Shown here in pieces: positions 11,663-55,957 of a DNA stretch of 64,000 nt. This stretch comes from Naegleria gruberi. Its lineage: Eukaryota. The DNA is taken from NCBI GenBank assembly GCA_000004985.1, contig GG738859.1; one strand, 5' to 3'. Within the stretch, counting starts at the first letter, position 1, and the number at the start of each line of letters is the position of its first letter. The position numbers were made by a program, and so were the translations under genes. The notes below the pieces were generated by a model. It searched no databases. It saw only the letters and a list, made by a program, of their open reading frames with translations, and was not told where the DNA came from.

Positions 11663-11719
11663 TTTTTTTTAAAGTAATAGTTTTCACATTGTTTTCTCTT
11701 CACAAACTCTGATAATTTA

Positions 11720-19726: not shown

Positions 19727-20390
19727 TGTTGTAATACCAATATTGTGTTAAAGGCTTCTTGGTAGTACTCTGGAAGGAGTTCAACAAACACTATTGGAAA
19801 ATGTGAAGATTATTTTTTTTAAAAAGAGCTCTTGTCAAACAAAAGAGACATAACGGTAATTTGGTTTGACATTTTGACAGCCACTGACGAAGAGTTGACG
19901 TCCCAGTGTTAAAATTGTTAACACAACCGAAATGGTTCTAACTCTTTTGAGATCCTCAATTAAATTGTTAAGAATTCGGTACATACAATAACAACCAAGC
20001 AACTCATGATGGTTATGTGTAGGTTCGTTTCATAAATTGATTTAAAAAAAGGCTAAATTATTCAACACTACTGTTGGTTGTTTTTTTGTTGCATCACAAC
20101 AAATTGTTATTTTAAATATTGCTTACCTAATGATATTAATTGCCTCACACATTATCATGATAGGAGGGTGAACGTGACATTAAATTAGTTGGGAATGTAT
20201 GAATATCTTGAAAATTTCATCAACATGTTGATGCACCAATATATAATTTCTTCCATCATAAGAAAAGGCTTTTTAATAATTCACAAGCTACAACAATATC
20301 CAAAACAAAAAGCCTTCATCAACAGCCAGACAGCGTTCAACAATATTTTAGAATATTTTTAGGAGGGAAAAAAGAAAAAATTGAAAAAAA

Positions 20391-22367
20391 ATGAGCAAGA
20401 CAACAACAAGAACATCTTCGGAAAGTAAATTAGCCTTTACATCATCGGAGGCTATTAAAAAGATGGCTGATGGTATCATTTCGGATAAGAAGAATACAAA
20501 TAATTTGGTTAAATTAACAGAGTTTTTAGAAGAATTATTTCCTTTATCTTCTCAAAAACATCGTAAACTTGCTCTTCAAACAATTTCATCACTTGTGGAT
20601 GTTTTTAGTCACTTTTTTGAGGAAGGAACTCTTATATTAACAGTAACAGAATCAAAAAATCAAAAAGATGCTGTCGCTTGTGATGTTAGTAAAGAAAAAT
20701 CGATACAAAAAAAGGAATATATGAAATGGATTTATGAACAATATGTTTCATTCACAAAATATTTACCACTTTATGCTGTTCACTATTTTACTAAATTTAA
20801 TGAAAATTATGAAGAAATTGAAACTGTTATTAAGGCTATTTTGGATCTTTCTAAAAAGGAATTAACTTCTGCTAGTGGATCAACACTTGTTGAAATGGAA
20901 AGAGAAAGAAATAGAATTAACACTATTATAAATGAAGGTCCATTCGGTTCTTTTATTTATCATTTGATATATGACCCAAATAACAGTGAAGGAAAAGAAT
21001 TTGTTATCACTTGTCTTAAAGAATATATTTTCAAATTCCATGATTTGAGATTTTTTGCTTACATTTCATTGACAAATGCTATCAGAAAGATTCGTTCAAA
21101 GAAGAAGAGAATGCTTACATATCCACAACTTTATGATAATGTTTTGCAAATTATTGATGGTATTCCAATAATTGATGTTATTGGTAGATTTTATTTATAT
21201 GATGGTTATGATTATGATAGTGATGAAGTAAATAGTGATGAAGAAGATGGAATGGATGAAGATGGTCCAAATGAAGATGGTATTCCAGATGATTTTATGA
21301 TGGATCCTGAATTGGGTGATTTGAGTTCATTGACTTTACCAAGTTCTCAAAAGAAATCAACAGAAGAAAAGAAGGAAAGCGAAGAAAAGGATGAAGAAAT
21401 GAAGGACGAAGATAAGGAAAATAATTTACTTGATCCAGATGTTCACATTAATGCCTATACAAACTTTTGGCTTGCCTTCTTACAAATACCAGAAATGACT
21501 AGATCTGTTTATGAAAAAGTTTTGAGAAAGATGAGCACAGAAATTATTCCACAATTTGAAGATCCATTCTTGTTGAATGATTTCATTTCTAATTCTTTTG
21601 ATCAGGGAGGATTGGTTGCACTTCTCTCAGTTAAGAGTTTATTCATTTTGATTACCGAGTATAATTTGTAAGTTTGAAGAGTTTTTAATACTAATTAATG
21701 TAGAGTTTATGACCAATTTTATAACAAGATTTACGCTATCATTGAACCATCTCTTTTCACTATGGATGATAGACATGAATTTTTCGAGTTGCTTGATACA
21801 TTTATGAAATCTACCCATTTACCTGAATATTTGGTGGCTGCCTTTGTGAAAAAGCTTGCTAGAATTTCATTATTCGCACCTGCTTATGCCTGTAATTATA
21901 TTCTTGCTGTTATTTATAATCTTGTTTCTAGACATCCACAAATTAGTTTCTTGGTTCAAAAAGGAGAAATTGAACCAAAGTATCTTTCAAGAATTCAAAA
22001 GAAATATTTAATGGAAAAGAATTCAGAAATTTATCTGAAAGATAACCGAAAGATTGTAGATCCTTTTGATCCAAATGAAAAAGATCCAAAAGAATGTAAA
22101 GCAATGCAAAGTCAACTTTGGGAAATTGAGACTTTACTTTATCACTCGAATGGAGAAGTTGCTAAATTTGCTAGAGATATTAAGAGACATTTCCTTGAAG
22201 GTTTCCCTCTTTTTGATATTAAGAAATATACAACCATCACAACAGAAACCATGTTTGCAACAATATCAGAAAAGAAAAAGTTTGTAAAGCTTTCAGGTGT
22301 TGAACCTCCAAAATCATTATTTGGAAGACAAGCTGATCATAACGTGTTTGGTCTATTTGATTTATAA
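20391..22367 (+). CDS. NOC4: NOC4 (nucleolar complex protein 4, CBF/Mak21 family). Exons 20391..21667 and 21704..22367.
   Basis: Matches human NOC4L: ...SLFILITEYN-L-VYDQFYNKIYAIIEPS (SLFVLITQHNLEYPDFYRKLYGLLDPS), HLPEYLVAAFVKKLARISL (HLPAYLVAAFAKRLARLAL), LVSRHP, DPFDPNEKDPKECKAMQSQLWEIETLLYHSNGEVAK (DPYDPGEEDPAQSRALESSLWELQALQRHYHPEVSK). The 36-nt intron (GTAAGT...GTAG) is needed to splice across the codon tt|a. Confidence 0.85.
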
Positions 22368-22372
22368 AATTT

Positions 22373-24226
22373 TTACTTTCTTGCACTCTTTGAACTGCTT
22401 CTTGGAGGAACTAAACTTGTTCCATTTCGTTCTCTGTAAAGTTTTAACATTCTTGATACATCCTTAGTGTTGATTGTTGGTATTTCTTGTTGTACATATC
22501 CATCATATTTCTTAATGAAGGTATTCAATGAGAGATCAAAAAGGGATGAAACGAGAACAGGTTTCTTTACCTCTTTCTTAGGTGGAGCTTTTTTTTTATC
22601 TTCTTCAGGAGTCTCTGTCGGGCTCTCACTTCTATCTTTACTATTTTGGGAATTGAGCAAACAACAAATGTATTGAATTTTAGTTTCTTCAATAAGATAA
22701 GTTGTATAACTTCCAATTTTGGCCCTGTTGAGCTCCTCCTCTTTTGTCTTAAATAATTTACCAAGATAACCCATCTTGAAGCTCTCAATAAAGTAGTCCA
22801 GTGATAATTGAATATTATTTTCCACATTGAAATAGTATTCTCCCAATATTTTGTACACAAAACCGTCGATATATTGCTTGGAAGAATCCAATTGATACAG
22901 CATTTCAAAATCTTCCACTGTATCCTTGATAGAGCCAGATAATAAAAAACATGATCCTCTCGATTTGTAAAGGGCTGGTTCATCAGGAAGTTCTCCAATT
23001 GCCATATTGAGGCAGAACATTGCTTTGTCTGTTTCATTTCTGTCCATTAAGATTGTAGCTTTGGAGACATAAGAATCCACCAATAGAGGTGGATTATCTA
23101 GCGGCTTTTTGTCAATGCAAGATGAGAATGCAAACAATGCATCCTCAATTCTTCCAATGATCAAAAGCAAATGTCCATAATGGTTCAAATATTCAATGCT
23201 ATCAGAATTAACTTTTACAAGAGCCTCATAGATAGAAATGGCATCCTCAATTTCTCCATTTTTTTCATGATTTGCAGCTGTTTTCTCGTATTCAGCACAA
23301 AATTGAGGATCCAAATCTCTAATTTTCTTAAAATCTTTCTTAGCATCGTCAAGATAACCTAATTGCGACAAGACATCACCTCTTAAAAAATAAATGTAAG
23401 GATCTTGATCATCTACGTCATTGATAATTCTGTTGAAACTGTCAAATGCTCCATTTAAATCTTGTAATGTGGAACAACATTTTCCAAGACTGACCAGGAC
23501 AGTTTTTGTTGGATGTTCAATTTTCAAATATTTCTCAAATTCTCTTCTTCCCTGATCAAAATCTTGTAAGTGAACATAACAATCTCCTCTTACAAAGTAT
23601 GCAGATGAAACAAAAGGATCTTTTTCCAAACAAACACTCAAGAATTCAATTGATTCTTGATAATTCCCAGCTCTCCAAAGTGATTCTCCTAGCATATTAT
23701 AAACTTCTGGTCCATTCATATCTTCTTTTATACATTCCTTAAACAATGCAGCTGCATCAACAAATTGTTCATTTAAATATAATTCCTTTGCTGTTTCCAA
23801 TTTTCTTTCTCTTTCTAACCTTATTTCCTCCGGTTTTGGTTTGAAGGCTTTTGAGTTTTTTCTTCCCTTTTTGTATTCCTCAACTAGTTTTCTACTAAAA
23901 TCAGTGCTCAACATTTCATAAGGTGTTTTCTTTGGTCTGATAATTGGATTCTGTTTTCTATACTCTCTTTCTTTAGACTCTATGAATCTTGAATGATACA
24001 AGGTTTTGCAATAATTCATATATCTGTCAGTGTAAAATTTTGAATCCCTCTTCATGGTTCCTTCCCGAATGGTTGATGTCTCGTAAACTTTGTTAATCTT
24101 AACAACCGGTTGATTGTATTCATTAAATACCACAACTTTTGATTTTTCATCCCTCCTACTCTTAACATTTGATGAATTGAGTACCGATGATGAGTTTAAA
24201 CTATTGCTCGTTTCTGATGATGGCAT
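22373..24226 (-). CDS. TPR-repeat protein (617 aa)
   Basis: Multiple 34-aa TPR-like repeats (AxxYxxLGxxxxxxGxYxxAIxxFxxAL...DP pattern). Single ORF. Its stop lies 5 nt from the NOC4 stop on the opposite strand. Confidence 0.6.
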   Translation of the reverse strand: MPSSETSNSLNSSSVLNSSNVKSRRDEKSKVVVFNEYNQPVVKINKVYETSTIREGTMKRDSKFYTDRYMNYCKTLYHSRFIESKEREYRKQNPIIRPKKTPYEMLSTDFSRKLVEEYKKGRKNSKAFKPKPEEIRLERERKLETAKELYLNEQFVDAAALFKECIKEDMNGPEVYNMLGESLWRAGNYQESIEFLSVCLEKDPFVSSAYFVRGDCYVHLQDFDQGRREFEKYLKIEHPTKTVLVSLGKCCSTLQDLNGAFDSFNRIINDVDDQDPYIYFLRGDVLSQLGYLDDAKKDFKKIRDLDPQFCAEYEKTAANHEKNGEIEDAISIYEALVKVNSDSIEYLNHYGHLLLIIGRIEDALFAFSSCIDKKPLDNPPLLVDSYVSKATILMDRNETDKAMFCLNMAIGELPDEPALYKSRGSCFLLSGSIKDTVEDFEMLYQLDSSKQYIDGFVYKILGEYYFNVENNIQLSLDYFIESFKMGYLGKLFKTKEEELNRAKIGSYTTYLIEETKIQYICCLLNSQNSKDRSESPTETPEEDKKKAPPKKEVKKPVLVSSLFDLSLNTFIKKYDGYVQQEIPTINTKDVSRMLKLYRERNGTSLVPPRSSSKSARK

Positions 24227-26441: not shown

Positions 26442-26625
26442 AAGGCAAATAAATGAAAAGAAGTTTAGCGTCTTTTAAGTTAGCTCTTCCTTCAAATTTT
26501 TCCAATGTAATATATTGTTCTGTATTTGGTAATATCAAAATAAAATATTAATTCTCTGACTTTTGGTATTGAATCTAAAAATTCACTTGGATAATGATGC
26601 TCTGAGTACCTGACTAGTCCTTATT

Positions 26626-27558: not shown

Positions 27559-27953
27559 GACAAATAATGTAAATGTTGGCAAATCGTATTATTTAGAGAC
27601 AAAATGGTAGATAGAATCAAATCTTAATTTTAGCTAAGATGTGTTTGAATAATACGAAATATTGATCAGGGCTTAAACAAAAATAGCCCAAGATGAAATA
27701 AGCGAAAAATAGGGTTATCCTTTCGTTATTCAATTGATTAAGTTGAATCACTAGTTGTGGGGTATTTACAAATTGAGCAAAATATTAGACACTGAGAAGG
27801 AATCATTCAAGAATCCTTGATTATCTTTACAATCAACATTTGAGAAGTGTAGCCATGAATTTGCAGAGATATTAATAAAACTCAGCTAATTCTATTTTCC
27901 TTTTAAACAATAATTGCCTCTTTCATTGTTCAAGGAAAATTAACTCGAAAAAA

Positions 27954-31481: not shown

Positions 31482-32108
31482 ATGGGTGCTATCTTTTCGC
31501 TTTTTCATAAGAAGGAAACAAAAGTCAGTGAACAGGACAAGGCTGTTCTAGAATTAAAAACTCAACGTGACAAAATCAAGGTCTACCAAAAGAAATTACA
31601 AACAGTTATTCAGAAAGAACGAGATGTGGCCAAACAATTGGTACAAGAAGGAAAGAAGGATTTGGCCATGTTGGCTTTAAAGAAGAAAAAGTATCAAGAA
31701 AGTTTATTAGAAAAAACTCATAAACAATTAGATAATCTCCAACAAATGGTTGATCAATTAGAATTTGCTCAAATTGAAAAACAAATTTTGGATGGACTTA
31801 AACAAGGAAAACAAGCTTTGGATACTTTACAAAAGGAAATGGGATCATTGGAAGATATTGAAAAATTGATGGACGAAACACGTGAAGCAATTCAATATCA
31901 AGAAGAAGTCAGTAGAATCTTGAGTGAAAGTCTTACACCTGAAGATCTTACTGATGTTGAAGAAGATTTGAACGAATTGGAAGCACAATTGTTAAAGGAA
32001 AATATGCCAAAAGTCAACAAAACACCTCTTCCTACTGTAGAAAAACCATCCGAAGTTGAAATTGAGCAAGACGAAGAGGAAGATGAAAGAAAAGCTGTAC
32101 AACTCTAA
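31482..32108 (+). CDS. CHMP6: CHMP6/Vps20 (ESCRT-III, Snf7 family), N-myristoylation signal MGAIFS
   Basis: MGAIFSLFHKKETKVSEQDKAVLELKTQRDKIKVYQKKLQ...LALKKKKYQESLLEKTHKQLDNLQQMVDQLEFAQIEKQ matches human CHMP6 MGNLFGRKKQSRVTEQDKAILQLKQQRDKLRQYQKRI...LLKKKRYQEQLLDRTENQISSLEAMVQSIEFTQIEMK. The in-frame S/T-rich extension 31293..31481 is probably not translated. Confidence 0.85.
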   Translation: MGAIFSLFHKKETKVSEQDKAVLELKTQRDKIKVYQKKLQTVIQKERDVAKQLVQEGKKDLAMLALKKKKYQESLLEKTHKQLDNLQQMVDQLEFAQIEKQILDGLKQGKQALDTLQKEMGSLEDIEKLMDETREAIQYQEEVSRILSESLTPEDLTDVEEDLNELEAQLLKENMPKVNKTPLPTVEKPSEVEIEQDEEEDERKAVQL

Positions 32109-32128: not shown

Positions 32129-32572
32129 CTACACTCTAACTGCAAAAACAGTAGTAACACAGTGGATTGTGTCATTATTCCAACATTCGGAAATCATTTG
32201 ATCAGTTGATTGACCTTCCCAGTGAGCTACGCATGATGAGTGAAGACCAGCTCCAGTTCTTTGCATAATTATACACGTTACAACATATTTATAGGGTTTT
32301 CCATTCACTTTTCCGTTACTATCAGGCAGTAACATTTGTTCTTGATTATTCTGTAAACCCTTTAATATTCCTTCAAGTAATGTTGAAGTCCATGTATCCA
32401 CTTTTTGAGCATGGTATTGTGCATCCTTTAAAACAGTTAATAAATTTTCTCTTATTATTAATTTAATTTTTGAATCATCAATAGCAACTGAAGACTGTAT
32501 TCAGTTTGTATGAAAGTCCTTCATCAAAATACAAACCTCAAAATCGTCCTTCACAACAGCACCTAAAGACAT
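32129..32572 (-). CDS. Dynein light chain Tctex-1 family (DYNLT). Exons 32572..32537 and 32496..32129.
   Basis: C-terminus KPYKYVVTCIIMQRTGAGLHSSCVAHWEGQSTDQMISECWNNDTIHCVTTVFAV matches Tctex-1 [33 protein letters not shown]...TMYCIVSAFGL. The 40-nt intron GTTTGT...ACAG is required to avoid an in-frame stop. Confidence 0.75.
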
Positions 32573-32611
32573 TTTTTTGTAGAATTAATTTTAAATAAAG
32601 GCGCGAAAAAA

Positions 32612-34933: not shown

Positions 34934-34951
34934 ATATTAATTAAAAAAAAA

Positions 34952-35527
34952 ATGATTGACCGCGTTGGTGACCACACTTTAACAAAGAGAGAAAAAGCAG
35001 TACTTTCCGATTGTTTTTGGACTGCAGGATATAGAGGATTATTATCGGGTACGATTGCAGGAGGTGTTTTAGCTTGGGCTGGTAAGTTTCTACAGTATTG
35101 TGTGATGTGAGGGAAAATTTCGGAAATATTGATGTTGTGGATAATAATTAGTGAAAAAGTATCAAAAACCACAAAAACCAATGGGTAGAATTGCTGTTGT
35201 TTCTTGTATGTGTTTTTTTGAAAATGATTTTATTATAATTATTGAAATATAGTATTCTTTATTGGAGGTGTTTATCTTGGATCGGCATCTGCTGTACCTT
35301 ATTGTTTGAAGAGTTTTGCTAAATTGGAAGATTCTGAACTTGGAGATACTGCTAGAAGATTGTAAGTTTTGAGTTTTGACAAATTGTCAATTTGAATATA
35401 ATAGTATTATGGCTGTAACAGATCAAACTAAACAAGAAGCAGGTGGTCCATCAAAGAATGAAGAATGGGATTGGGAAGAAGAAGAAAAAAAGAAAGCAGC
35501 TGCTGCAATGCAAGCTAAAAAGAAATA
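34952..35527 (+). CDS. Small (about 120 aa) glycine-zipper transmembrane protein. Exons 34952..35081, 35253..35361, 35406..35527.
   Basis: MIDRVGDHTLTKREKAVLSDCFWTAGYRGLLSGTIAGGVLAWA | VFFIGGVYLGSASAVPYCLKSFAKLEDSELGDTARRL | FIMAVTDQTKQEAGGPSKNEEWDWEEEEKKKAAAAMQAKKK. GTAAGT donors and AG acceptors with consistent phase. The start is 18 nt after the stop of the upstream gene. Confidence 0.45.
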
Positions 35528-35535
35528 ATCATTTA

Positions 35536-36243
35536 CTATTTTATGAGATCTTCAGTATAACATTTCAATTCGTTGTAATTTTCGATTAATGATTTTTCTA
35601 ATATCTTAGTATCTAGAGATTCGCCTGAGGTTAAATTCAATTTCTTAAGAAGAAACTTTCCAAAATAAAATTCAATATCATATAGCGTCCTTTTTTCAAT
35701 AGGAAATTTCTTGGAATTATTTAATATTTCTGAAATCCTAGGTTCCCAAATTGTAAAAAGCTCATTCAGAAATGATTCATCAAATATCGAAATATTATTC
35801 AATATTATTACAATAAATTTAGAAGCAATAGGTGCTCTGCAAATGTTTTTAGATTCTTGAATTATTTCCAATTTGATTTGTTCTATTAATTTTGTCAATG
35901 TTTTTGCAGAATTTTCCTGTAATTCTTCTTTTAAATTGACAATTAATATTTCCCAAAGTTTAATTAACTCATCAAAAAGTAAAGTTACTCTTTGTTTCTC
36001 CCCATTATCAGGTAATGGTGTAATATTCCTCAATTCCTCTTCCGAATGACAATATCTGTTAATAGGTCGTTGATTTGTAAGTATAGGATCCAGAATAATA
36101 CAATGATCATGTTTAGGACAATTTCCGACTTTTAATTTATCATATTGAAAACGAGCATCTTTTAGTTGGTTTTTCAATTTTTCTGCAACATTAAAAACAT
36201 CGTTTGATACCTCCACTATCTCAACGTCATCATCATCCGACAT
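35536..36243 (-). CDS. Hypothetical protein (235 aa), acidic N-terminus
   Basis: Single ORF with non-repetitive sequence. Its stop is 8 nt from the stop of the convergent gene ending at 35527. Confidence 0.4.
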   Translation of the reverse strand: MSDDDDVEIVEVSNDVFNVAEKLKNQLKDARFQYDKLKVGNCPKHDHCIILDPILTNQRPINRYCHSEEELRNITPLPDNGEKQRVTLLFDELIKLWEILIVNLKEELQENSAKTLTKLIEQIKLEIIQESKNICRAPIASKFIVIILNNISIFDESFLNELFTIWEPRISEILNNSKKFPIEKRTLYDIEFYFGKFLLKKLNLTSGESLDTKILEKSLIENYNELKCYTEDLIK

Positions 36244-36250
36244 TTTTAAA

Positions 36251-36583
36251 ATGTTGTTAATAATATTTAAAATTAATACTTGTGTAAATTTGATGGCAAT
36301 GTTAATATTATTATTTAATATTGTACTTGTCTTTTCAGATTTGAGTTTTTTAGGAGTGAATGGATTTGTGAATAATTATTATCCAAATGGCAACAATTTT
36401 CAAAATCCATTGCTGAGAACAACCTTGCCACCTCCACCTCCTCCACTTCTAACCTTTCCACCAGTTACTATTCCACAAGTGTTTGGGAGTTTTTATGTTT
36501 GTAATGCCTACGATGCAAGTGGTGTACCTTTACCATTTCCAACCATTGCTAGTTGGCAAGGTTTAGGATGGCCTCCACTTTAG
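36251..36583 (+). CDS. Possible small secreted Pro-rich protein (weak)
   Basis: Hydrophobic N-terminus MAMLILLFNIVLVFS, PPPPPP tract. Short ORF, so it could be spurious. Confidence 0.25.
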   Translation: MLLIIFKINTCVNLMAMLILLFNIVLVFSDLSFLGVNGFVNNYYPNGNNFQNPLLRTTLPPPPPPLLTFPPVTIPQVFGSFYVCNAYDASGVPLPFPTIASWQGLGWPPL

Positions 36584-36608
36584 AGATTAATTCTCTGTCT
36601 GATTGGAA

Positions 36609-39312
36609 TTAAGCTGTTTCCAATGGTGAGTCCAACTAGATAAAATTTTGTAAATTTTGAAATCTCAATAAAACTTACAGAAAATAGCCATACCAATAAG
36701 AAAAACCTCAGTCATGAAATAAATACCACTGGCTGAATCTTTTGATAAAAAGGCAGAAAAACCTCTCCATGAAAGAGAACCAGGAACCAAAAGTAAAGTT
36801 GCAACAGAGTTAATGAGGAGTGGTGGATGGTTTGTTATGAGTGAATAAATATTACTTCCAACACCAGTCTGTCAGAGATGATGATAATAATTCGGTTTAA
36901 AAACAATTGAATGTGTGAAAAATACTTACAACAATACCAGCAATGACAGTTCCCAATTCTGATCCCAATACGTTACTGGTATAGAATGCAGTAAGGTGAA
37001 CAGAAAGAGTCACAACCACTAGACAAAAATAGGTAAAGAAATACTTTGGTACCTTAGCGTCTATTCCAATAGCAATGGCAAGAACAATAATGGCTACAAT
37101 ACGCATAGGCAAGGAAAGATCTGTTCTTGTTGTGCCAACTTTTTCACTAGCTGCAAATGCAGGGAATAAATTAACCATACCATTAGTAATAAGTAAACCG
37201 AAACCCAATTTCAAAACTGTAGAAAATGCACTGACAAGTCTGGATGTACCTGAAACTAGAGATCTTGCCTGAATTTCATTAATACCAATCATAATCGTCA
37301 CACCAGGTAAATAATAAAAACTCAAACAAAGGCAAATCAGGACCACACTCACATAACTAACATCCCACAAAATAAATTTGAATATAATTCCACATAGCCC
37401 TCCAACCACACTCGCCACAATAACTGAAACGTTTGAAAAGAAGGCAATCCTCGAACCATAAACCATGAATATACCAATTATAATACCACCAATAAAACAG
37501 GTCAAAACTTCTCCAACAGTTCCATTCCACAACATGACATAGAATCCACAAAAAACAAACATGTTAAAAACTGTAAACATTGGATGTGAATAAATAGGAG
37601 GCTCCATAATAACTTCAGCAATTTTTTCTTGAGCATCCTTCAATGGAAGTAAACCATCAGAAATATCGTGAGCTATAGAATCCAATTTGGTCAATTTGTT
37701 TAAATCTGTAGTTTGACTTTCAATTTTAACAAAGTAAGACACATTTGATGGATCTCTTGGTTTTGTACCAAAACTGTACCAAATACCTGTTGGAATACTA
37801 TTTTCAAATTTGTTAATAAAAATCTTCCTAGATTTTAAATAATACGTACCAGAAGAAATAACCATCCATTCCAAAATATGTGCTTACCAAAGACAAGTGA
37901 TATTCAACTCTATTAGAAGGTAATCCATAAATTGACAAGGCATATCCTAAATCCAAAAGTAAGGAGTGAACTCTATTCTTATCCTCTCTTGTTAATTTTT
38001 GATAAGGGATTACATATCTCTTTTCTATTTCAAATTTTCCTGTAACACACCACAACATGGCTTTTTTAAGCTTTTCAGATAGGGAATGATTTGTCCTTTC
38101 GTCTTCTTCTGGAGCCATTTGATCTTCCATTTTTTGCTTTCCTCTTTTGAAAAGCCAATTTTTAACTTTTCGTTTTGTTGATGGTAGCATTGGTACAGGA
38201 TTTGATTCCAAATAAATTGGTTTTTTAGAAAATTCACTTTGAGCCAATCTCTTTTGTTCACTCGATAATTTAAAAGAATTAAGTGATCCAGAAAATTCTG
38301 AATGTGAATATAAATCCGATACTGTTGAGTTTGTTTCCTCATATAATGATTCCAAATCATTGAAAGAAGATGTTCTTGATAAATTTCCAGAACTAAAGTT
38401 ATTTGCATTATTTTCCACAGAGTACATATCATCCTCTGAATTAATATTATTTAACATTGCTGTATTACTAACAGCACTCGAAGAAACCATAGCAGAAGCA
38501 CCACCAAAAGAGCTCGGATTGTTTGATAGTGTTGTTGAAAGGTCAAATATTGGAGAAGCTCCAGATAAAAATCCATTCGGAGGTAAATTAGCACTAATAT
38601 TCTTTGATGGTACAATAAATGTCTTGGGAATATTAGAATTAGTGGATGGAATTATTCTTGATGCAGATCCAAAATCAACAATATATTCCTCATCATCATT
38701 ATAGTCATCAACATCATTATTCCTTGTTGGAAAAGTTGCTTGATTATTCAATCTTTCTGGAGAGGTAATTGTAGGGGAGGTAGGAGAGTCTTTGTATTCG
38801 TCTTGAAGTCTTGATGCCATAGTTTGCTTTTCAAGATTAGAAGAAGAATGAAAACTAGAGAGAATGTGAGGAGGTTCCATATCTTCAAAAGATTCCTCAT
38901 CATCTTGTGATGGTAGGAAATGATCATCATTCATATTATAGGGTAAACTCTTTGTAGTTGTCAGCAAGTGTTTGATATTGGAACTACTTTTTGAAGGAGT
39001 AACACTATTAATAAGAAGAGGAGAAACATTTGGATTGATACTCATCCTACGACCATTGTTTGATGTACTTGTTACATTACTAACAGTATTATTATTGTTA
39101 ATATTATTATTGAAAGAAGACGGTATTGTTTTTAATTGTTCCGTAGATGAAATACTATTACTAGTAGCATTAACAATATTTGATGATGTTATTGTTGTAT
39201 TGTTGTTGTTGTTGCTATTGATGATTGTTGTGGGTGATGATGAATTTACATTCGGAATTTGTGAAGGCTGAACATTACCCTCACCACCACTACTACTATT
39301 ATCTTGTAGCAT
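36609..39312 (-). CDS. ThrE/DUF1212-DUF3815 family membrane protein (Prm10-like). Exons about 39312..37860, 37797..36930, 36868..36679, 36635..36609.
   Basis: RVHSLLLDLGYALSIYGLPSNRVEYHLSLVSTYFGMDG is the hallmark DUF1212 block. It is followed by about 10 TM helices. A Ser/Asn-rich N-terminal region. Three short introns with GTACGT/GTAAGT donors. Confidence 0.55.
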
Positions 39313-40476: not shown

Positions 40477-42636
40477 ATGTCTAAAAAACAAAACGTTCTT
40501 CCGTACAATGATCAACATAGTGTATTATATGAACATCATAGACAACAAAGTCTTGAAGATGGAGATAAATTAGCCTTTGAAACAATTGTTGATGAAGAGA
40601 AAAAGTTAGAAGAATCGGAATTTAAAAAAACAGAATTTGCCAAGACTAAAAGTTTAATTAAAATTGCATCGGAGATGATTAAACATACTGATTGGGAATG
40701 GTCTGATTCTATTGGTCTTGGTTATTATTTAAATTTTAGAAAGGATAAAATTGTCAAGGATTATTCATACATGATTGATGAATCATTTAAATTTAATCAT
40801 GAAAAACAAGTTTTTGTAAATAATAATAATGAAGAGATCCCATTCGAAACGGTTGAGATTTGGAAGGAATATGTCATGTGTATCAGATATTTATTTAAAG
40901 AATATGATAATTTTATTATCAAAACAAGTTTTGATTATGCAGATGTTTTAGAGTATGAGCCAAAAGGTAATGCAGAAAGAAGTGCCTATGCTATTGTAAG
41001 GGATATAAAGAGGAAAAAGCTACTCTTACTCATCGAGGGAACAAAAACTTTCCATGACTTGTTGACTGATTTGAATACTGATGCTGTTGCTTTTGAATGC
41101 GAAACTTTTAAGAATGAAAATATTACAAACCAATTTGTACATTCTGGTATGATTGAAAGAGCTTATTGGTTCTATTATCAAATAATTCCAAAGATTGAAA
41201 ATTATTTGGCAACTGAATATACTGATTATTCATTTGAAATGGTCGGACATAGTTTAGGTGCTGGTACTGCTTCTATATTAACATTATTAATTATTCCTAA
41301 AATGCCAGATGTTAAATGTTTTGCATTTGCTTGTCCAAAGATATTCTCTCATGAGCTTGCAAGATCTGATCTGGTTAAGAGTCACATTACCACATTTATT
41401 AATCAGGATGACTTTGTTCCACTATTTTCTGTGGAAAGTTTTAGAGATTTCAAAACTAATAGAATGGTGAATTGGAAATCAGAAGTTATGAATGAAACAC
41501 AACTAGGGAAATTCATAAAGAGCACCGATAAATTCATGGATCAAAATGGTGTTTATGGAGCTTTCAACAATGTAAAAAACACTTTCAAGAGTGGGTTCAA
41601 TTACATTGTCAATGGTGCTCAAAGCAACCCTATTGTTACCAAAAAACAAAAAAAAACACCTCCTCCACTTCCAAAGAACTTAGTGAAAAAGAGATTAATC
41701 AAACTTCAGGAATACAAGGAAGATGAGATCGATGAAGAAGATGAAAATTTCTTCATCAATCTTGTAAAGGAATACGAAGAAAAAGCCAAAGAAGAAAATG
41801 ACCAACAGGAAAAGAAAGACCAAGTTGAACAAGAACCGACTGCTTCAGAAAATTATGAAGAAAAACAAGAGGAAATTGACCAAGACATTGATCAAGAAGT
41901 GGAAGTACCAGAAAATCAAGACAGTATCCCATCTACATTACCAGAAAATCAACAACTCTTTAGTAGTCATATTAGTCCAGTTATGGATGGTATTGATGAG
42001 GCCTCTGATCCTAGCTATGATCAAGAACAAGATACAGAGACAAGTTCAATATACAGAGATTTGCCACCTCTTCCAAAATCATTCATTACTGGTGTTCATC
42101 TTTACTCACCAGAGAATATTCTGTATTTTAGAACTATTAATGATAGAACCTATATGAAGAAGTGTGTACCTTCAGAGTTTGAACAATTGAATTTTGGTCA
42201 AAAGTATGTGGCCGACCATTTTTCAAGTAGTTACATTAATGCACTTGCTGGTGTTTTGGATTCTGTTACAGCTGTTCAACAAGCTCCTCCACTTCAACTT
42301 CCCCCACTTCCAACGTTACCAAAACAACGAAGTCCAGTAACTAAGGATGATATGCATGAAATTGAGATTGTCTCCGTTGTTCCAACAATTGAAACCAAGA
42401 GAACTCTTCCTCCACTTCCAGCACACTTACTCAAAACTAAATCACCAGTCTCCAACGAGGTAACTGAATCAATAATTACAACCAGCAATGAAATTACTGA
42501 AACTGTTACTGTTGAAACTGTTGTACAAACAACTGCGCCATCCATTGATGTTGAGATAACTACAACTGCTGAGCAAACTGAGCCAGTCGAAACCACATCA
42601 ACAACAGAAACCAGAAACAACCGAACCAATATCTAA
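40477..42636 (+). CDS. Class-3 lipase (sn-1 diacylglycerol-lipase-like) with a Pro-rich C-terminal tail
   Basis: GHSLGAGTASILTLL nucleophile elbow. Upstream ERSAYAIVRD...IEGTKT...HSGM blocks typical of Lipase_3/DAGL. C-terminal PPPLPK, LPPLPKS, PPLQLPPLPTLPK and LPPLPAHL motifs. Confidence 0.7.
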   Translation: MSKKQNVLPYNDQHSVLYEHHRQQSLEDGDKLAFETIVDEEKKLEESEFKKTEFAKTKSLIKIASEMIKHTDWEWSDSIGLGYYLNFRKDKIVKDYSYMIDESFKFNHEKQVFVNNNNEEIPFETVEIWKEYVMCIRYLFKEYDNFIIKTSFDYADVLEYEPKGNAERSAYAIVRDIKRKKLLLLIEGTKTFHDLLTDLNTDAVAFECETFKNENITNQFVHSGMIERAYWFYYQIIPKIENYLATEYTDYSFEMVGHSLGAGTASILTLLIIPKMPDVKCFAFACPKIFSHELARSDLVKSHITTFINQDDFVPLFSVESFRDFKTNRMVNWKSEVMNETQLGKFIKSTDKFMDQNGVYGAFNNVKNTFKSGFNYIVNGAQSNPIVTKKQKKTPPPLPKNLVKKRLIKLQEYKEDEIDEEDENFFINLVKEYEEKAKEENDQQEKKDQVEQEPTASENYEEKQEEIDQDIDQEVEVPENQDSIPSTLPENQQLFSSHISPVMDGIDEASDPSYDQEQDTETSSIYRDLPPLPKSFITGVHLYSPENILYFRTINDRTYMKKCVPSEFEQLNFGQKYVADHFSSSYINALAGVLDSVTAVQQAPPLQLPPLPTLPKQRSPVTKDDMHEIEIVSVVPTIETKRTLPPLPAHLLKTKSPVSNEVTESIITTSNEITETVTVETVVQTTAPSIDVEITTTAEQTEPVETTSTTETRNNRTNI

Positions 42637-42647
42637 TGAAAATTAAC

Positions 42648-44048
42648 TTATTCTTCTTTTACTTCCTCTTTCTTTTGCTTTTTCTTTTTTGGCTTGTTTT
42701 CTTTTTGTAATTGGGCTCTAACCTCCAATGTCTTACTGAAAGTTTCCTTGTTCAGTTCGATGAAAGGTTGTTGGGATTCCTTCATTACATGTTGCATCAC
42801 CCTCAATGAATCATCACTTGCACCCATACTTCTTCTCTTCTTCAATTCCATTCTCTTTCTTTCTTTTGCTAATTTCTTTTTCTTTGGAGCATTACCGTGA
42901 TATTTGTGTGAGAATTCTCTGTAGGCCTCCTTTGGTGTCAATGAATTACCATGTCGGTCCAAGTGTTCAATTACAAAATCAGCCTCATCATCATATCCAA
43001 GAGCAGTCGGTTTAAGTCTTTCTTCAATGTGAGATCTATCCTTACTTCTACCAACTCTTTTATCCTCCAAAAACCCTTGTAAACTAGCAAACTCAATGGT
43101 GGCAAGTAGGCCATCCGAAACGAGAGGTTCTTTGACTAAGTTTTCAGGTTGAATTATATCTTTCTTTACATCCTCTTCCTCTTTGATTTCTTGTTTTACA
43201 TCCAATATTTCACTATTAGTATTATCAGCATCCACATCCATGTTTACATTGTTTTCCTCATCTTTTGATCTAACTGAAACATTCTTTCTTTTTCTCTTAT
43301 TAATAGTTGCATCTTGAGGCTCTGTTTTTACATTTTCTACAGCTAGGGTTTTTACAAAGTGTTTTGTAGAGTCAAATATTTTTCCAGATATGTTCAAATT
43401 ATCCTCATCTACAAGCATTTTATCAGATCCATGAAGCACCATAGATTCTTCTTGTGCTTTATCAATGGCTTCTTGATAGGTTCTATCTTTTTCCTTTTCT
43501 TCCAATAGATTTTTCTCTTCTCTCTTAGTAAGTCTATTTTCAGATCTTTTTGCCAAGTGGATTTCATCAATTGATGAATTCATTTCCATTAGCTGAAGTA
43601 AATCATCCGTTACACCAATTTGTGATGTTTTTTCCTTCACTCGAATATTCTTAACTTTCTTTTTCTTTAAAGCCTCAAAATCTGAAGCTATTGCTGGTTT
43701 TGATGATGAAAGATCATAAACTTTAGCATTTGGTCTATGTAATTCTTCCTCTTCCTCTTCAAAAGCTAATATTTTCTTTTTTTGCTCCTTTTTTAATTTT
43801 TCTTTTGCTTCTTGATTTTCATCATCAGAATCAATTCCTTGTTTTCTTTTAAATTCTCTTTCTTTTCGTTTTATCTTTGCTAATTCTATTCTTTTTTGTA
43901 TTTCCGAAGCTTCATCTTCCTTCTGATCTACTATTACAGTATTTTTTGTATCATTTCCGACCTTGAGAGGTTTTAATCCGAGTTTTATTCTTTGTTCGTT
44001 TGTTTCCTCGATTGTCAGGAAGAAACTTCCATCACTTGCAATGTGCAT
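42648..44048 (-). CDS. SART1: SART1/Snu66 family protein (U4/U6.U5 tri-snRNP-associated), corresponding to the C-terminal two-thirds of the family
   Basis: LDRHGNSLTPKEAYREFSHKYHGNAPKKKKLAKERKRMELKK matches the SART1 signature [40 protein letters not shown]. Lys/Glu-rich low complexity. Confidence 0.65.
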   Translation of the reverse strand: MHIASDGSFFLTIEETNEQRIKLGLKPLKVGNDTKNTVIVDQKEDEASEIQKRIELAKIKRKEREFKRKQGIDSDDENQEAKEKLKKEQKKKILAFEEEEEELHRPNAKVYDLSSSKPAIASDFEALKKKKVKNIRVKEKTSQIGVTDDLLQLMEMNSSIDEIHLAKRSENRLTKREEKNLLEEKEKDRTYQEAIDKAQEESMVLHGSDKMLVDEDNLNISGKIFDSTKHFVKTLAVENVKTEPQDATINKRKRKNVSVRSKDEENNVNMDVDADNTNSEILDVKQEIKEEEDVKKDIIQPENLVKEPLVSDGLLATIEFASLQGFLEDKRVGRSKDRSHIEERLKPTALGYDDEADFVIEHLDRHGNSLTPKEAYREFSHKYHGNAPKKKKLAKERKRMELKKRRSMGASDDSLRVMQHVMKESQQPFIELNKETFSKTLEVRAQLQKENKPKKKKQKKEEVKEE

Positions 44049-47474: not shown

Positions 47475-48710
47475 ATGAAAACATTCAAATTCGACCCACA
47501 AACTCAAGAATGGAAGAGTTACTCAAAAATTGAAGAGTTCAATCAAGTTCCATCCTCATTTCTTTCAATTGATAAATTGACAAGGGAATTTGGATTGAAA
47601 ATTGGCACATTTAATGTGTTATTTGATTTGGTTCCTTTCTTTTTACAATCAATATTGAGAGCAAAAGAAAGGCATATTCATACCATTGAATTATTGAAAA
47701 GAGAAAATTTTGACATTATCATTTTGAATGAAGTTACTGGAAGATTTTTAAATTTAATTGAAAATGATGAATTTTTCAAGAGCGAATATTACTTTAGTGA
47801 TATTATGGAGAGAGATGGTGATGTGAAAAGTGAATTAACTGTGAATAAGAGCATTGGAAAGAGAATGGGAAATCTTGTCTTGTCCAAATTTGCTCCAGAT
47901 TTTACTGAAATGGAGGGTATTAATAAGAGTAGAGCTTTTATTTATAGTTCATTCACTCCTGTGGATGGAAATGGAAGAAGAATTGAAGAAGAAAGGATTG
48001 GTATTGTGGCAACCCATACAAGTGCCTTTACTCATAATGATCAAGTTAGAAAGCAAGAATTGACTAGATTGGTAAATTCTGAACTATTGAAAAATGTTAA
48101 AAATGTTGTAGTTTTAGGAGATTTAAATCTGCATGAAGAACACGAGGATAGGACAATTGAAGCAATTAATTGTAGAGATTTATGGACAGAAACTAGAAGC
48201 AATGGTCTATTTCGTGGATATACATTCGATTCTCTCAATAATTCACTCATTCAAATGCTATTTTTGAATTTTGAAAAGAGAAGAATGCGATTGGACAGAA
48301 TTATTGTAAACTCCTCAAGTTTATTAGGTTGTAATTCTAAAGTTGAGTTGTTTGGGCATGAACCAATTTCAACATATAGAAAACAAGGGTTGACCACAAC
48401 GAACCTACAAACTCCATTGTGGTTTACTTTATTGAGACAATTAGGAATTATTGATTGCAAAACAGACGACTATTTATTCTGCTCTGACCATTTCGGTCTT
48501 AAAACCTCACTAGTTCTTTGTAGCTCAGCCCAAGATTTAAAGAATCTATCTACAGAAATCAAAAATCAAGATGAAACATCAATGAATGAATACAAGGAGG
48601 ACAGTTATGAAAGTGCAAACAAATTCAAATATTCCATCAACTATTTGAGATTGACTCTCTCAATGGTTGTTTTGATTTTAATGGTTGGTTATGGAATTTC
48701 AAAACTGTAA
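47475..48710 (+). CDS. Endonuclease/exonuclease/phosphatase (EEP) family protein, TDP2-like, with a C-terminal TM anchor
   Basis: FNVLFD...IILNEV, GDLNLHEEHED (compare TDP2 GDTNLRD), RMRLDRIIVNSS (RFDRIFF), and SDHFGL at the catalytic His position. C-terminal hydrophobic LTLSMVVLILMVGYGI. Confidence 0.55.
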   Translation: MKTFKFDPQTQEWKSYSKIEEFNQVPSSFLSIDKLTREFGLKIGTFNVLFDLVPFFLQSILRAKERHIHTIELLKRENFDIIILNEVTGRFLNLIENDEFFKSEYYFSDIMERDGDVKSELTVNKSIGKRMGNLVLSKFAPDFTEMEGINKSRAFIYSSFTPVDGNGRRIEEERIGIVATHTSAFTHNDQVRKQELTRLVNSELLKNVKNVVVLGDLNLHEEHEDRTIEAINCRDLWTETRSNGLFRGYTFDSLNNSLIQMLFLNFEKRRMRLDRIIVNSSSLLGCNSKVELFGHEPISTYRKQGLTTTNLQTPLWFTLLRQLGIIDCKTDDYLFCSDHFGLKTSLVLCSSAQDLKNLSTEIKNQDETSMNEYKEDSYESANKFKYSINYLRLTLSMVVLILMVGYGISKL

Positions 48711-48713
48711 ATT

Positions 48714-50516
48714 TTATTCCTTTTTGAAAACTGTTGATTTTCTCTTTTCTCTATTCGATTTGGACCATTCCAAATACCAAGATCTGTTTGGATATAATTT
48801 TTGATTATCTCTCCATGCCTTATCATAACACTGATCATCCACACTATCTGAAAGTTGTAATTTTTTAGTTCCACCCTCAGTCAATTCATTCATTAGTTTG
48901 TCCATTTTAGTATAAATATCCTTCGTTCTCTTTTTCCAAAACATTTCCAGAATAAGATTAGAATTGTACTTGAAATTAGCATCTCCATACATGACATGCA
49001 CCAATCTGGTCATGTTATCATACATTTTATAGAAAATGTAATAAGACAATGCAAAAGCATCAATTCCATTTTCTTGCCTTGGTAATTCGTCCTGTGAAAA
49101 ATCTCCAGTGTGCATCACGTACATGTACATATCATTGAATGGATCCTTAATCGTTGTTCCAGTCATACAGAAATACCTCTTTTTCACAAACGGAAGTTTG
49201 TAATCCAATCCACTTGTAAGTAATTGGAGGGCATACATTGGTTTGTCAACTGAATTCTCTTTCAGACCTTCTTCACATGGTGGAACATATTTATGTAACT
49301 GGTAATCAGTGTGAGCTTGTGGATCAAACTTGATATGATTATCTCCATGAACCCACATTGCCCAAACATCATCAAATGAATAGGGTAAATACATGACTGA
49401 TTTGAAGAGTTGCATTCCTTTCAGTCTACTCGATGAGAATACGTATGGGGTTTTAGAACAGTATGATTGATAGAGTTTCTTATCTTGAATTAATTTCCAA
49501 TCTGGTGTATCTTCAGCCAATGTAAATCCTATTTTGTAATGAATTTTTTCAATTGAAAATTACAATATTACAAATAGTTCAATATATTAATAATATGGAA
49601 AATAAAACTTACCAAAGTAAATATGATTATCAGAAACTGTCTTATCCATCAAATCGTTTGGTTTAAATCTCAAATCAACATTGACTCCCTTTGAAGAATC
49701 AATAGCAATGGTTCTTGTGAAATTTTCACCCTTTTCTTTTAAAAAGTTCAATAAGAATTGACTTCTCACAAATCTTGGAAATTGATCCATTTTCAAATCC
49801 ATATGAACAGTCAACTCAACTTCATTAAATAATTTCTGATAATCCAACAGTTCAATAATTTCACTACAAAGTGGATACAAATTTGATTCATTGGAATCTA
49901 ATGATCCTTCCTGTGATGAATTAGATGATTCAGTATCATTAATTGAAACTGAAGATGCACTCTTTCCTAGAGTTTCCTTTTCTGATATTAATTTTGTAAA
50001 ATTTTCAAACTTTTCTTGAATTTTTTCATGTTTACCCAACAATTCTCTCTGTATATGACCAATATTTAATTCCTTCTCTGATGATGGTTTAATATAAATA
50101 TTAAATATCGAATTTGACTTGTCTGTTATACGTCTCAGTTGTTTAGTTACTTTTTTTAGTTGTGATTTCTTCTTGAAAGTTGTTGGACGAGAAAATTCTG
50201 TTATGGATGATGTGGAATCACTGTTATTTAGTGTGTCATTCTCTAGCTTGAGTATTTCCATTATTTCGGCAATGGATTTATCATATTCTTTCTTATAATA
50301 TTCCAATTCGTCTAGGAATAGGATAGTTTCATCACTTAAGCTTGTGTTTGTCAAGTATTTTCTAAAACATTCTCTGGATTCCTTTGATTCTATCATCTCT
50401 TCATAGACAACAGAATAATTACGAGGATCAAATGATGCTGTTTTTGCCGGCATGTTTGGTTTCGTCTTGTTTTTTTTATCCGAAACAAAAGAATCAATGA
50501 TATTCGTGCGGTTCAA
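48714..50516 (-). CDS. RGS-domain protein with a C-terminal globular domain of unknown family. Exons 50516..49613 and 49528..48714.
   Basis: N-terminal SRECFRKYLTNTSLSDETILFLDELEYYKKEY resembles the RGS core FxxFLxxEFSEENLxFWxACExYKK. An 84-nt intron (GTAAGT...ATAG) joins ...HIYF-G-FTLAEDTPDWK in frame. Confidence 0.5.
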
Positions 50517-55945: not shown

Positions 55946-55957
55946 TTTACAAATAAT

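What the first reader, a model, noticed from the sequence alone, without database searches (positions are those of the whole stretch)
22357..22380. Extreme gene compaction: convergent stop codons 5-26 nt apart, divergent start codons 39 nt apart, same-strand spacing of 18 nt
Convergent stop-to-stop gaps:
- NOC4(+)/TPR(-) stops at 22367 and 22373.
- Small TM gene(+)/35536(-) stops at 35527 and 35536.
- Chromodomain gene(+)/ABC(-) stops at 55945 and 55958.
- CHMP6(+)/Tctex(-) stops at 32108 and 32129.
- 36583(+)/ThrE(-) stops at 36583 and 36609.
The 3'UTRs of these convergent pairs must overlap, forming natural antisense pairs. Divergent: the Tctex-1 ATG at 32572 and the 773-aa gene ATG at 32612 share a 39-bp interval, which must act as a bidirectional promoter. 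Same strand: the 773-aa gene stops at 34933 and the next ATG is at 34952. Together with introns of 36-106 nt, this indicates an unusually streamlined amoebozoan genome.
Basis: seen in the sequence. Interest (0 to 1): 0.5.

Follow-up and report, generated by a model that had tools for sequence, protein, structure and literature searches.

The report
Tail-to-tail gene packing in Naegleria
This is an ordinary gene-dense stretch of the Naegleria gruberi nuclear genome, not an amoebozoan one, where genes facing each other end only 3-20 bases apart, so their messenger RNA tails almost certainly overlap; this fits the very short untranslated regions already published for this organism.

Summary
The window is Naegleria gruberi (Heterolobosea, Discoba), not Amoebozoa: three ORFs are 100% identical to public N. 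gruberi proteins.

**Observation.**
- The codon positions are almost all correct.
- One stop is off by one base (35528, not 35527).
- One of the five convergent pairs (36583/36609) is doubtful. Its + ORF has no support, and the ThrE gene more likely stops at 36665-36667.
- Orthologs from N. fowleri, N. lovaniensis and Willaertia magna confirm both ends of NOC4/TPR and CHMP6/Tctex, and the Tctex start codon.
- I found further tight pairs: lipase/SART-1 (11 nt) and EEP/268-aa (3 nt).
- Eight supported convergent gaps have a median of 11.5 nt, against 274 nt (divergent) and 168 nt (tandem).

**Conservation.** The NOC4/TPR junction is 5, 4, 4 and 9 nt in four species. Lipase/SART-1 is 11, 12 and 1 nt in three.

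**Mechanism (inferred).** Poly(A) signals sit on or beside the stop codons. Published N. gruberi 3'UTRs have a median of 39 nt, so cleavage must fall inside the partner's last codons. This gives roughly 20-50 nt of antisense overlap.

**Verdict.** The pattern is real but already explained by known Naegleria gene density, ultrashort UTRs and "dual-use" stop codons. Interest is low.

The parts
20391..22367 (+). NOC4 (CBF/Mak21) coding region, two exons; stop TAA at 22365-22367
   Evidence: Pfam CBF hit. PDB Noc4/NOC4L alignment with a matching C-terminal length. tblastn to N. fowleri, N. lovaniensis and W. magna runs to the last residue; the C-terminus ..FGLFDL* is conserved.
22361..22375 (.). 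Tail-to-tail junction: 5-nt spacer (22368-22372) between the two stop codons. The 8-nt palindrome TTTATAAA (22361-22368) gives UAUAAA on both strands. AGUAAA overlaps the TPR stop.
   Evidence: Read directly from the sequence. The orthologous junctions are 4, 4 and 9 nt and carry ATTAAA/AATAAA.
22373..24226 (-). TPR-repeat protein, 617 aa; stop TAA at 22375-22373
   Evidence: Pfam TPR hits. 100% identical to an N. gruberi protein, 54-55% to N. fowleri/N. lovaniensis, 45% to W. magna. C-termini align within one residue for the two Naegleria orthologs; the W. magna protein runs eight residues longer.
31482..32108 (+). CHMP6-like Snf7 gene (starts MGAIFS..., 208 aa); stop TAA at 32106-32108
   Evidence: Pfam Snf7 hit. 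Start and length match the 206-207-aa orthologs. The C-terminus ..RKAVQL* is conserved.
32129..32572 (-). Tctex-1 dynein light chain, 133 aa, one 42-nt intron (32495-32536); stop TAG at 32131-32129; ATG at 32572
   Evidence: Full-length Pfam Tctex-1 match. 91-93% identical in N. fowleri and N. lovaniensis. Exon 1 peptide is conserved.
32573..32611 (.). 39-bp head-to-head interval between the Tctex and 773-aa start codons; both ATGs are preceded by AAAAAA
32612..34933 (+). 773-aa Ybp2/glomulin-family gene (XP_002678948.1, NAEGRDRAFT_65636). Its stop TAA lies inside AATAAA (34929-34934), a 'dual-use' stop. ATTAAA follows at 34940-34945.
   Evidence: Pfam hit. Exact public entry. Poly(A)-signal scan.
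34934..34951 (.). 18-nt same-strand spacer ending in a run of ten A's before the next ATG
34952..35528 (+). Predicted small membrane-protein gene, 138 aa, three GT-AG introns (35082-35151, 35206-35252, 35362-35404); stop TAA at 35526-35528
   Evidence: Splice enumeration and codon scores. No Pfam hit, no relative found and no exact public entry. Prediction only.
35536..36243 (-). 235-aa orphan gene; stop TAG at 35538-35536, 7 nt from the small TM stop
   Evidence: Identical to a public protein and the only hit in 1.84 billion representatives. Weak N. fowleri tblastn match.
36251..36583 (+).
   Evidence: Low codon score. No Pfam hit. No exact public entry. No tblastn hit.
36665..39312 (-). ThrE-family transporter. 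Most likely stop is TGA at 36667-36665 rather than 36611-36609.
   Evidence: Pfam ThrE hit. The last exon is 91% identical to N. fowleri, whose annotated model stops at the same place.
40477..44048 (.). Additional tight pair: class-3 lipase (+, stop at 42634-42636) and SART-1 (-, stop at 42650-42648), 11-nt spacer
   Evidence: Pfam hits. The same pair has a 12-nt gap in N. fowleri and a 1-nt gap in a Naegleria-like metagenome contig.
47475..49520 (.). Additional tight pair: EEP-family gene (+, stop at 48708-48710) and the 268-aa ORF of an RGS gene (-, stop at 48716-48714, inside AATAAA), 3-nt spacer
   Evidence: ORF-level evidence only.
54251..56473 (.). Chromodomain gene (+, stop at 55943-55945) and the last exon of an ABCB transporter (-, stop at 55960-55958, inside AATAAA), 12-nt spacer
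   Evidence: Pfam hits. PDB alignment to the end of the nucleotide-binding domain. Poly(A)-signal scan.

Best explanation
This is a typical gene-dense region of the Naegleria gruberi nuclear genome: about 28 genes in 61 kb, with 87% of the span inside genes.

**Shown.**
- Genes are separate transcription units in mixed orientation.
- Spacers that need no promoter, between two 3' ends, have shrunk to 3-20 nt in most pairs.
- Head-to-head spacers are 39-664 nt. Tandem spacers are 18-1437 nt.
- No coding regions overlap.
- The ends of the main pairs are confirmed by orthologs.
- The tail-to-tail arrangement is conserved across species.

**Inferred, following published N. gruberi 3'-end data.**
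- Each gene's poly(A) signal (AAUAAA, AUUAAA or close variants) lies on or within a few bases of its own stop codon.
- Cleavage about 15-20 nt further on falls inside the last 2-9 codons of the partner gene.
- Convergent mRNAs are therefore complementary over roughly 20-50 nt.
- For NOC4/TPR, NOC4 transcripts should end near 22380-22390 and TPR transcripts near 22340-22360.
- For the 18-nt tandem pair, the upstream gene's AAUAAA overlaps its stop. Its cleavage site should then fall at or past the next ATG, and the downstream promoter must lie in the upstream gene's 3' end.
- The 39-bp head-to-head interval must serve both genes, with 5'UTRs of a few bases or start sites inside the neighbour.
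For: **Identity.** 100% matches to N. gruberi proteins.

**Stops and starts.** Read from the sequence.

**Gene ends.** Validated by orthologs, Pfam and PDB homologs.

**Gap classes.** Convergent median 11.5 nt against 274 nt (divergent) and 168 nt (tandem); p = 0.0008.

**Conservation.**
- NOC4/TPR gaps are 5, 4, 4 and 9 nt in N. gruberi, N. fowleri, N. lovaniensis and W. magna.
- Lipase/SART-1 gaps are 11, 12 and 1 nt.

**Poly(A) signals.**
- 17 of 72 gene ends have A[AT]TAAA over the stop. The rate is 2.4% at random positions and 14% at all TAA trinucleotides.
- Five of 25 ends in the window have AATAAA over the stop.

**Literature.**
- Median 3'UTR is 39 nt, the signal lies 15-20 nt upstream of cleavage, and 11-13% of stops are dual-use with a median UTR of 22 nt (PMC11529991).
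- Heterolobosea have about two genes per same-strand run and no long polycistronic arrays (bioRxiv 10.64898/2026.07.29.740908).

**Structure.** No RNA hairpins at the junctions; z-scores range from -1.7 to +1.1.
Against: - There are no transcript data for this locus. Overlap lengths, poly(A) sites and start sites are all predictions.
- Several tight-pair genes lack a canonical hexamer within 33 nt of the stop (CHMP6, lipase, EEP).
- The enrichment of stop-overlapping signals over all TAA trinucleotides is modest (24% against 14%).
- The small TM gene underlies both the 18-nt and the 7-nt distances, and it has no homolog support.
- Not all convergent gaps are tiny. In the window there are 57, 74 and a possible 312 nt. 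In relatives there are 45-490 nt.
Confidence: 0.8

Rival explanations
1. Gene-model artefact: the close stops come from mis-called terminal exons or spurious ORFs, and the real genes end elsewhere.
For: This is true for one of the five listed pairs.
- ORF 36251-36583 is unsupported, and the ThrE stop at 36609 needs a micro-exon that the N. fowleri model lacks.
- The small TM gene is only a prediction.
- Public models in this region do contain errors: the TPR model is truncated at its N-terminus, and Tctex is unannotated in two species.
Against: - Both ends of NOC4/TPR and CHMP6/Tctex are confirmed to the last residues by orthologs, as are the ends of PAP2/CH and SART-1.
- The ABC and Tctex ends are confirmed by PDB and Pfam alignments.
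- Independently annotated genomes show the same 4-12-nt gaps.
Confidence: 0.08
2. The transcripts do not overlap. Signals upstream of the stop direct cleavage inside the 3-20-nt spacer, giving 3'UTRs of a few bases.
For: Some N. gruberi 3'UTRs are very short, and signals can overlap the stop (PMC11529991). Several tight-pair genes show no downstream hexamer.
Against: - Even dual-use stops give a median 22-nt UTR, and the signal lies 15-20 nt upstream of cleavage.
- A 3-12-nt spacer cannot hold two such tails.
- I saw no canonical hexamer 15-20 nt upstream of the stops at these junctions.
Confidence: 0.07
3. The tight pairs are selected sense-antisense modules. Overlapping 3' ends couple the expression of the two partners, and the embedded signals lock the pair together through evolution.
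For: - NOC4/TPR stays tail-to-tail at 4-9 nt even in W. magna, where every flanking gene differs.
- Lipase/SART-1 stays intact through an inversion between N. gruberi and N. fowleri.
- Each NOC4/TPR junction carries signals for both strands. W. magna has a 14-nt palindrome, AAATAAATTTATTT.
Against: - Only two pairs could be followed.
- Lipase has a different partner in W. magna, 61 nt away.
- The CHMP6/Tctex gap drifts: 20, 45 and 236 nt.
- TAA...TTA with an A/T-rich spacer makes palindromes likely by chance.
- The partners share no obvious function.
- Passive retention, because breakpoints in a 5-nt spacer are rare and harmful, explains the same data.
Confidence: 0.15
4. The 773-aa gene and the small TM gene, 18 nt apart, are co-transcribed as a dicistronic mRNA, as in the polycistronic units of other Discoba.
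For: The 18-nt spacer leaves no room for a conventional promoter plus a 5'UTR.
Against: - Heterolobosea show about two genes per same-strand run and yeast-like spacer ratios.
- The window changes strand at 17 of 27 junctions.
- AATAAA over the upstream stop, followed by ATTAAA, predicts cleavage before or at the next ATG.
- I know of no report of spliced-leader trans-splicing in Naegleria (my own knowledge, not tested here).
Confidence: 0.08

Closest known systems
Ultrashort 3'UTRs and 'dual-use' stop codons of Naegleria gruberi and Giardia (Genome Res 2024, PMC11529991)
   Same: - Same organism.
- AAUAAA overlapping the stop codon is found here at five of 25 gene ends, close to the published 11-13%.
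- UTRs of tens of bases explain how genes can abut.
   Different: In the parts of that paper I read, it treats genes one at a time. I saw no description there of convergent partners, shared junctions or their conservation.
Overlapping transcription in compacted genomes of microsporidia and nucleomorphs (Williams et al. 2005, as cited in PMC2387174)
   Same: Minimal intergenic spacers, transcripts running into neighbours, and a proposed link between compaction and conserved gene order.
   Different: - Those are reduced parasite or endosymbiont genomes of 0.4-3 Mb. Naegleria is free-living, with about 41 Mb and 15,700 genes (my own knowledge).
- Here only the 3'-3' spacers are near zero; many promoter-bearing spacers are still 150-660 nt.
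Convergent cis-natural antisense pairs with overlapping 3'UTRs in yeasts and other eukaryotes
   Same: Tail-to-tail protein-coding genes whose 3' ends are complementary.
   Different: In yeasts the overlap usually lies within UTRs that are tens to hundreds of bases long (my own knowledge). Here the predicted overlap reaches into the partner's coding sequence because the spacer is only 3-20 nt.
Bidirectional promoters of head-to-head gene pairs
   Same: Two start codons 39 bp apart on opposite strands.
   Different: Far shorter than typical examples. No shared motif is conserved in the orthologous intervals, and co-regulation is untested.

Membership tests
Naegleria gruberi nuclear genome | Encoded proteins identical to N. 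gruberi reference proteins | tested here: met
   The TPR ORF is 100% identical to an N. gruberi protein. The 235-aa, 773-aa and 105-aa ORFs are exact entries: XP_002678948.1 and XP_002678949.1, on a 530,355-bp contig.
   The NCBI lineage of N. gruberi is Eukaryota; Discoba; Heterolobosea. The nearest relatives of the proteins are N. fowleri, N. lovaniensis and Willaertia.
Convergent cis-natural antisense transcript pair | Two genes on opposite strands with facing 3' ends | tested here: met
   Eight supported pairs with stop-to-stop gaps of 3-74 nt.
Convergent cis-natural antisense transcript pair | Mature transcripts overlap in sequence | not testable with these tools
   Inferred only, from published UTR lengths and signal positions. 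No RNA data were available for this locus.
Dual-use stop codon / poly(A) signal | AAUAAA hexamer overlaps the stop codon | tested here: met
   Met for the 773-aa gene, RasGEF, the 268-aa/RGS gene, RNase T and ABC. NOC4, TPR, the small TM gene, g235 and SART-1 have only variants: UAUAAA, AGUAAA, AAUAAU, AAUAAG.
Dual-use stop codon / poly(A) signal | Cleavage about 15-22 nt after that hexamer | not testable with these tools
   Needs 3'-end reads.
Bidirectional promoter | Head-to-head genes separated by a short shared interval | tested here: met
   39 bp between ATG 32572 (-) and ATG 32612 (+). Both starts are supported by orthologs and by the A-rich context.
Bidirectional promoter | Shared, conserved regulatory element or co-expression | tested here: inconclusive
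   The orthologous interval is 119 nt in N. lovaniensis and is interrupted by a 496-aa gene in N. fowleri. An E2F-like GCGCGAAA is neither enriched (3 found, 1.75 expected) nor conserved. Co-expression is not testable.
Polycistronic transcription units (kinetoplastid type) | Long same-strand gene arrays | tested here: not met
   17 strand changes over 27 junctions. Heterolobosea have about two genes per same-strand run.

The most novel reading that the evidence does not exclude
In Heterolobosea, convergent genes whose stop codons are under about 15 nt apart form locked two-gene units.
- Both poly(A) signals are packed into the junction, and each gene's cleavage site lies in the partner's last codons.
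- Any rearrangement or spacer change is therefore harmful.
- As a result, pairs such as NOC4/TPR persist at 4-9 nt across genera while the surrounding synteny dissolves.
- The obligatory 20-50-nt RNA complementarity may also couple the partners' expression.
Probability: 0.2. Interest if true: 0.45.

Novelty: already known. Interest (0 to 1): 0.2.

Why it matters
- **Annotation.** In Naegleria, a stop codon a few bases from the neighbour's stop is normal, not a sign of a wrong model. Unstranded RNA-seq or de novo assemblies will fuse or confuse tail-to-tail neighbours. Several public models in this region are incomplete.
- **Biology.** The poly(A) machinery of a free-living eukaryote with a full-sized gene set works with signals embedded in the stop codons, and with cleavage sites inside a neighbour's coding sequence.
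- **Possible follow-up.** The 4-9-nt NOC4/TPR junction conserved across genera suggests that such overlaps constrain gene order. That can be tested genome-wide, but it would extend a known idea from microsporidia rather than open a new one.

Tried and rejected
- **Concatenated protein query.** A 2,900-aa query meant to fetch all annotated N. gruberi models at once was swamped by unrelated candidates. It returned only two plant ABC proteins and cost one search.
- **Exact look-ups of N. gruberi proteins in the contig index.** Not on record.
- **Metagenome scans.** No relatives found for the 773-aa protein or the small TM protein.
- **Small TM protein.**
  - No Pfam family at E<=10 for six splice variants.
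  - A resemblance to the OCIA domain that I recalled from memory was not confirmed and is dropped.
- **g235.** The only hit among 1.84 billion representatives is itself, so its C-terminus has no ortholog check.
- **E2F-like site in the 39-bp interval.** Not enriched and not conserved.
- **Hairpin-type bidirectional terminators at the junctions.** No fold is better than shuffled sequence.
- **Palindromes at junctions.** They are present, but TAA...TTA with an A/T-rich spacer makes them expected, so I give them no weight.
- **Supplementary 3'UTR tables of PMC11529991.** Not held.
- **The 2010 genome paper.** Not held.


Full report
**Source organism.** The window is AT-rich, 18-36% G+C in 2-kb windows, and full of long ORFs on both strands. 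The TPR ORF at 22373-24226 (-) is 100% identical to a 'predicted protein [Naegleria gruberi]' on a 530,355-bp contig. Its next relatives are N. lovaniensis (55%), N. fowleri (54%) and Willaertia magna (45%). The 235-aa ORF at 35536-36243, the 773-aa ORF (XP_002678948.1, NAEGRDRAFT_65636) and the 105-aa ORF at 39939-40256 (XP_002678949.1) are exact public N. gruberi entries. N. gruberi belongs to Heterolobosea in Discoba, not Amoebozoa.

**Checking the observation.**
The small TM gene's TAA is at 35526-35528, not 35527, which gives a 7-nt spacer.

**Are the gene ends real?** I fetched syntenic, independently annotated loci from N. fowleri (L001, L004), N. lovaniensis (L003), W. magna (L006, L007) and a Naegleria-like metagenome contig (L008).
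- TPR C-termini align within one residue in the two other Naegleria species.
- NOC4 ends ..FGLFDL*..YSIFDF* and ..FGIFEF* in the different species. Its C-terminal length matches human and fungal Noc4 in solved structures.
- CHMP6 ends ..RKAVQL* / ..RKPVQL*. Tctex ends ..VFAVRV*.
- Tctex's 12-residue first exon and its intron are conserved, which validates ATG 32572.
- The NCA2, PAP2 and CH ends, and the last ThrE exon, are also confirmed.
- The ABC tail aligns to the end of ABCB nucleotide-binding domains.
- The 773-aa protein aligns with orthologs from residue 20. ATG 32612 is the only in-frame start upstream of that point.
- The three start codons in the finding all have AAAAAA before the ATG. 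Nine of the 22 candidate starts examined share this context. Only 2.8% of all ATG trinucleotides have at least five A's there.

**Weak points in the observation.**
- ORF 36251-36583 has the lowest codon score of the candidate genes. It has no family, no public entry and no ortholog in the loci examined.
- The conserved last ThrE exon ends ..MAIFCK, and the N. fowleri model stops right there. The N. gruberi reading frame stops two codons later, at TGA 36667-36665. The stop at 36609 needs an extra intron and a micro-exon. This fifth pair is therefore probably 81 nt apart, or not a pair at all.
- The small TM gene rests on an ORF and splice model, its codon score and the run of ten A's before its ATG. 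I found no homolog for it.

**Pattern across the window.** With about 28 genes in 60.8 kb, 87% of the span lies inside genes.

| Spacer type | Gaps (nt) | Median (nt) |
|---|---|---|
| Convergent (8 supported) | 57, 5, 74, 20, 7, 11, 3, 12 | 11.5 |
| Divergent (5 supported) | 39-664 | 274 |
| Tandem (4 supported) | 18-220 | 168 |

Counting weakly supported genes, tandem gaps in the table reach 1437 nt. The convergent gaps are shorter than the other two classes combined (Mann-Whitney p = 0.0008). Coding regions never overlap.

**Conservation.**
- NOC4/TPR stays tail-to-tail with 5, 4, 4 and 9 nt in N. gruberi, N. fowleri, N. lovaniensis and W. magna. In W. magna all flanking genes differ.
- Lipase/SART-1 has 11, 12 and 1 nt in three Naegleria-type genomes. 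It survives an inversion of the ThrE-lipase-SART-1 block between N. gruberi and N. fowleri. In W. magna, lipase has a different partner 61 nt away.
- CHMP6/Tctex stays adjacent, but the gap drifts: 20, 45 and 236 nt.
- Other convergent gaps in the relatives range up to 490 nt. Near-zero spacing is therefore common but not universal.

**How it most likely works.** Direct RNA sequencing of N. gruberi gave these figures (PMC11529991):
- a median 3'UTR of 39 nt;
- AAUAAA as the main signal, about 15-20 nt upstream of cleavage;
- 11-13% of stop codons overlapping AAUAAA, with a median UTR of 22 nt.

In this window, AATAAA overlaps the stop of the 773-aa gene, RasGEF, the 268-aa/RGS gene, RNase T and ABC. 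Close variants overlap or follow the stops of NOC4 (UAUAAA), TPR (AGUAAA, then UAUAAA), the small TM gene, g235 and SART-1.

Over 72 gene ends in all loci, 24% have A[AT]TAAA on the stop. The rate is 14% for all TAA trinucleotides and 2.4% for random positions, so the enrichment is real but modest.

The orthologous NOC4/TPR junctions also carry a signal for each strand. N. fowleri and N. lovaniensis have ATTAAA and AATAAA. W. magna has AATAAA on both strands within a 14-nt palindrome.

Spacers of 3-20 nt cannot hold two UTRs of about 20-40 nt. Cleavage must therefore fall in the partner's last codons, giving roughly 20-50 nt of complementarity. This step is inferred, not shown.

The junctions do not fold better than shuffled sequence, so hairpin terminators are not involved.

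For the tandem pair, AATAAA on the 773-aa stop and ATTAAA nine bases later predict cleavage at or past ATG 34952. The downstream promoter must then sit in the upstream gene's 3' end. Heterolobosea have short same-strand runs and are not polycistronic, which makes a dicistronic reading unlikely.

The 39-bp head-to-head interval must serve both genes. It is not conserved in length or motif in the relatives.

**Comparison with known cases.**
- High gene density in Naegleria is noted in the literature; N. fowleri falls in a prokaryote-like range (PMC9465069).
- Ultrashort UTRs and dual-use stops in N. gruberi are published (PMC11529991).
- Overlapping transcription and conserved gene order as consequences of compaction are classic for microsporidia and nucleomorphs (PMC2387174).
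- My full-text searches found no paper describing convergent 3' overlap in Naegleria specifically. It follows directly from the published UTR data, however.

**Verdict.** The taxonomic assignment is wrong, one pair is doubtful, and the phenomenon is ordinary for this organism. The only mildly new element is the conservation of near-zero tail-to-tail junctions across genera. That is a lead for a genome-wide test rather than a discovery.

Noticed in passing
window 1-20000: There is a strong composition gradient. G+C rises from 18% to 29%, and third-codon-position G+C rises from 8-9% (UTP20 exons, 2940-9242) through 12% (DUF789) and 13-16% (RasGEF) to 21-28% right of 22 kb. These are ordinary conserved genes, so the cause is regional and not foreign DNA.
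   Followed up: partly
window 44222-44308 (+): A tRNA-Tyr(GTA) gene with a 14-nt intron lies 173 nt upstream of the SART-1 start. Rfam found it, and so did ARAGORN with introns allowed. The default ARAGORN run missed it.
   Followed up: yes
window 22373-24226 (-): The public N. gruberi TPR model (560 aa) lacks 57 N-terminal residues. These are conserved in N. fowleri and N. lovaniensis, so the true start is ATG 24226.
   Followed up: yes
L001 2360-2811 (+); L003 2419-2867 (+): The Tctex-1 gene, 91-93% identical to N. gruberi, is not among the called genes in the N. fowleri and N. lovaniensis loci, although exon 1, the intron and exon 2 are all present.
   Followed up: yes
window 27879-28160 (+): This 93-aa ORF is 65-69% identical to uncalled ORFs at the syntenic position in N. 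fowleri (L001 7236-7448) and N. lovaniensis (L003 7195-7452). It is probably a small conserved gene missing from those annotations.
   Followed up: partly
window 36243-36251: The g235 start (ATG at 36243, -) and the start of ORF 36251-36583 (+) are only 7 nt apart. This would be an even tighter head-to-head pair than the one reported, if the + ORF were a gene, which I doubt.
   Followed up: partly
window 36600-44100 compared with L004: The ThrE-lipase-SART-1 block is inverted in N. fowleri relative to N. gruberi. A PARP gene stands where N. gruberi has the 105-aa gene. N. fowleri and N. lovaniensis have a histone gene between NCA2 and PAP2 that is absent here.
   Followed up: partly
window, start codons throughout: Nine of the 22 candidate starts examined have exactly AAAAAA before the ATG. 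Only 2.8% of all ATG trinucleotides have at least five A's there. This is a useful start-codon marker for this genome.
   Followed up: yes
window 26442-27878 and 50517-51933: Two 1.4-kb stretches have no supported gene. The first holds a 314-aa hydrophobic ORF (26614-27558) with a very low codon score and no ortholog hit. The second holds small + ORFs, one of which (51623-51919) stops 14 nt from the RCC1-like gene's stop.
   Followed up: no
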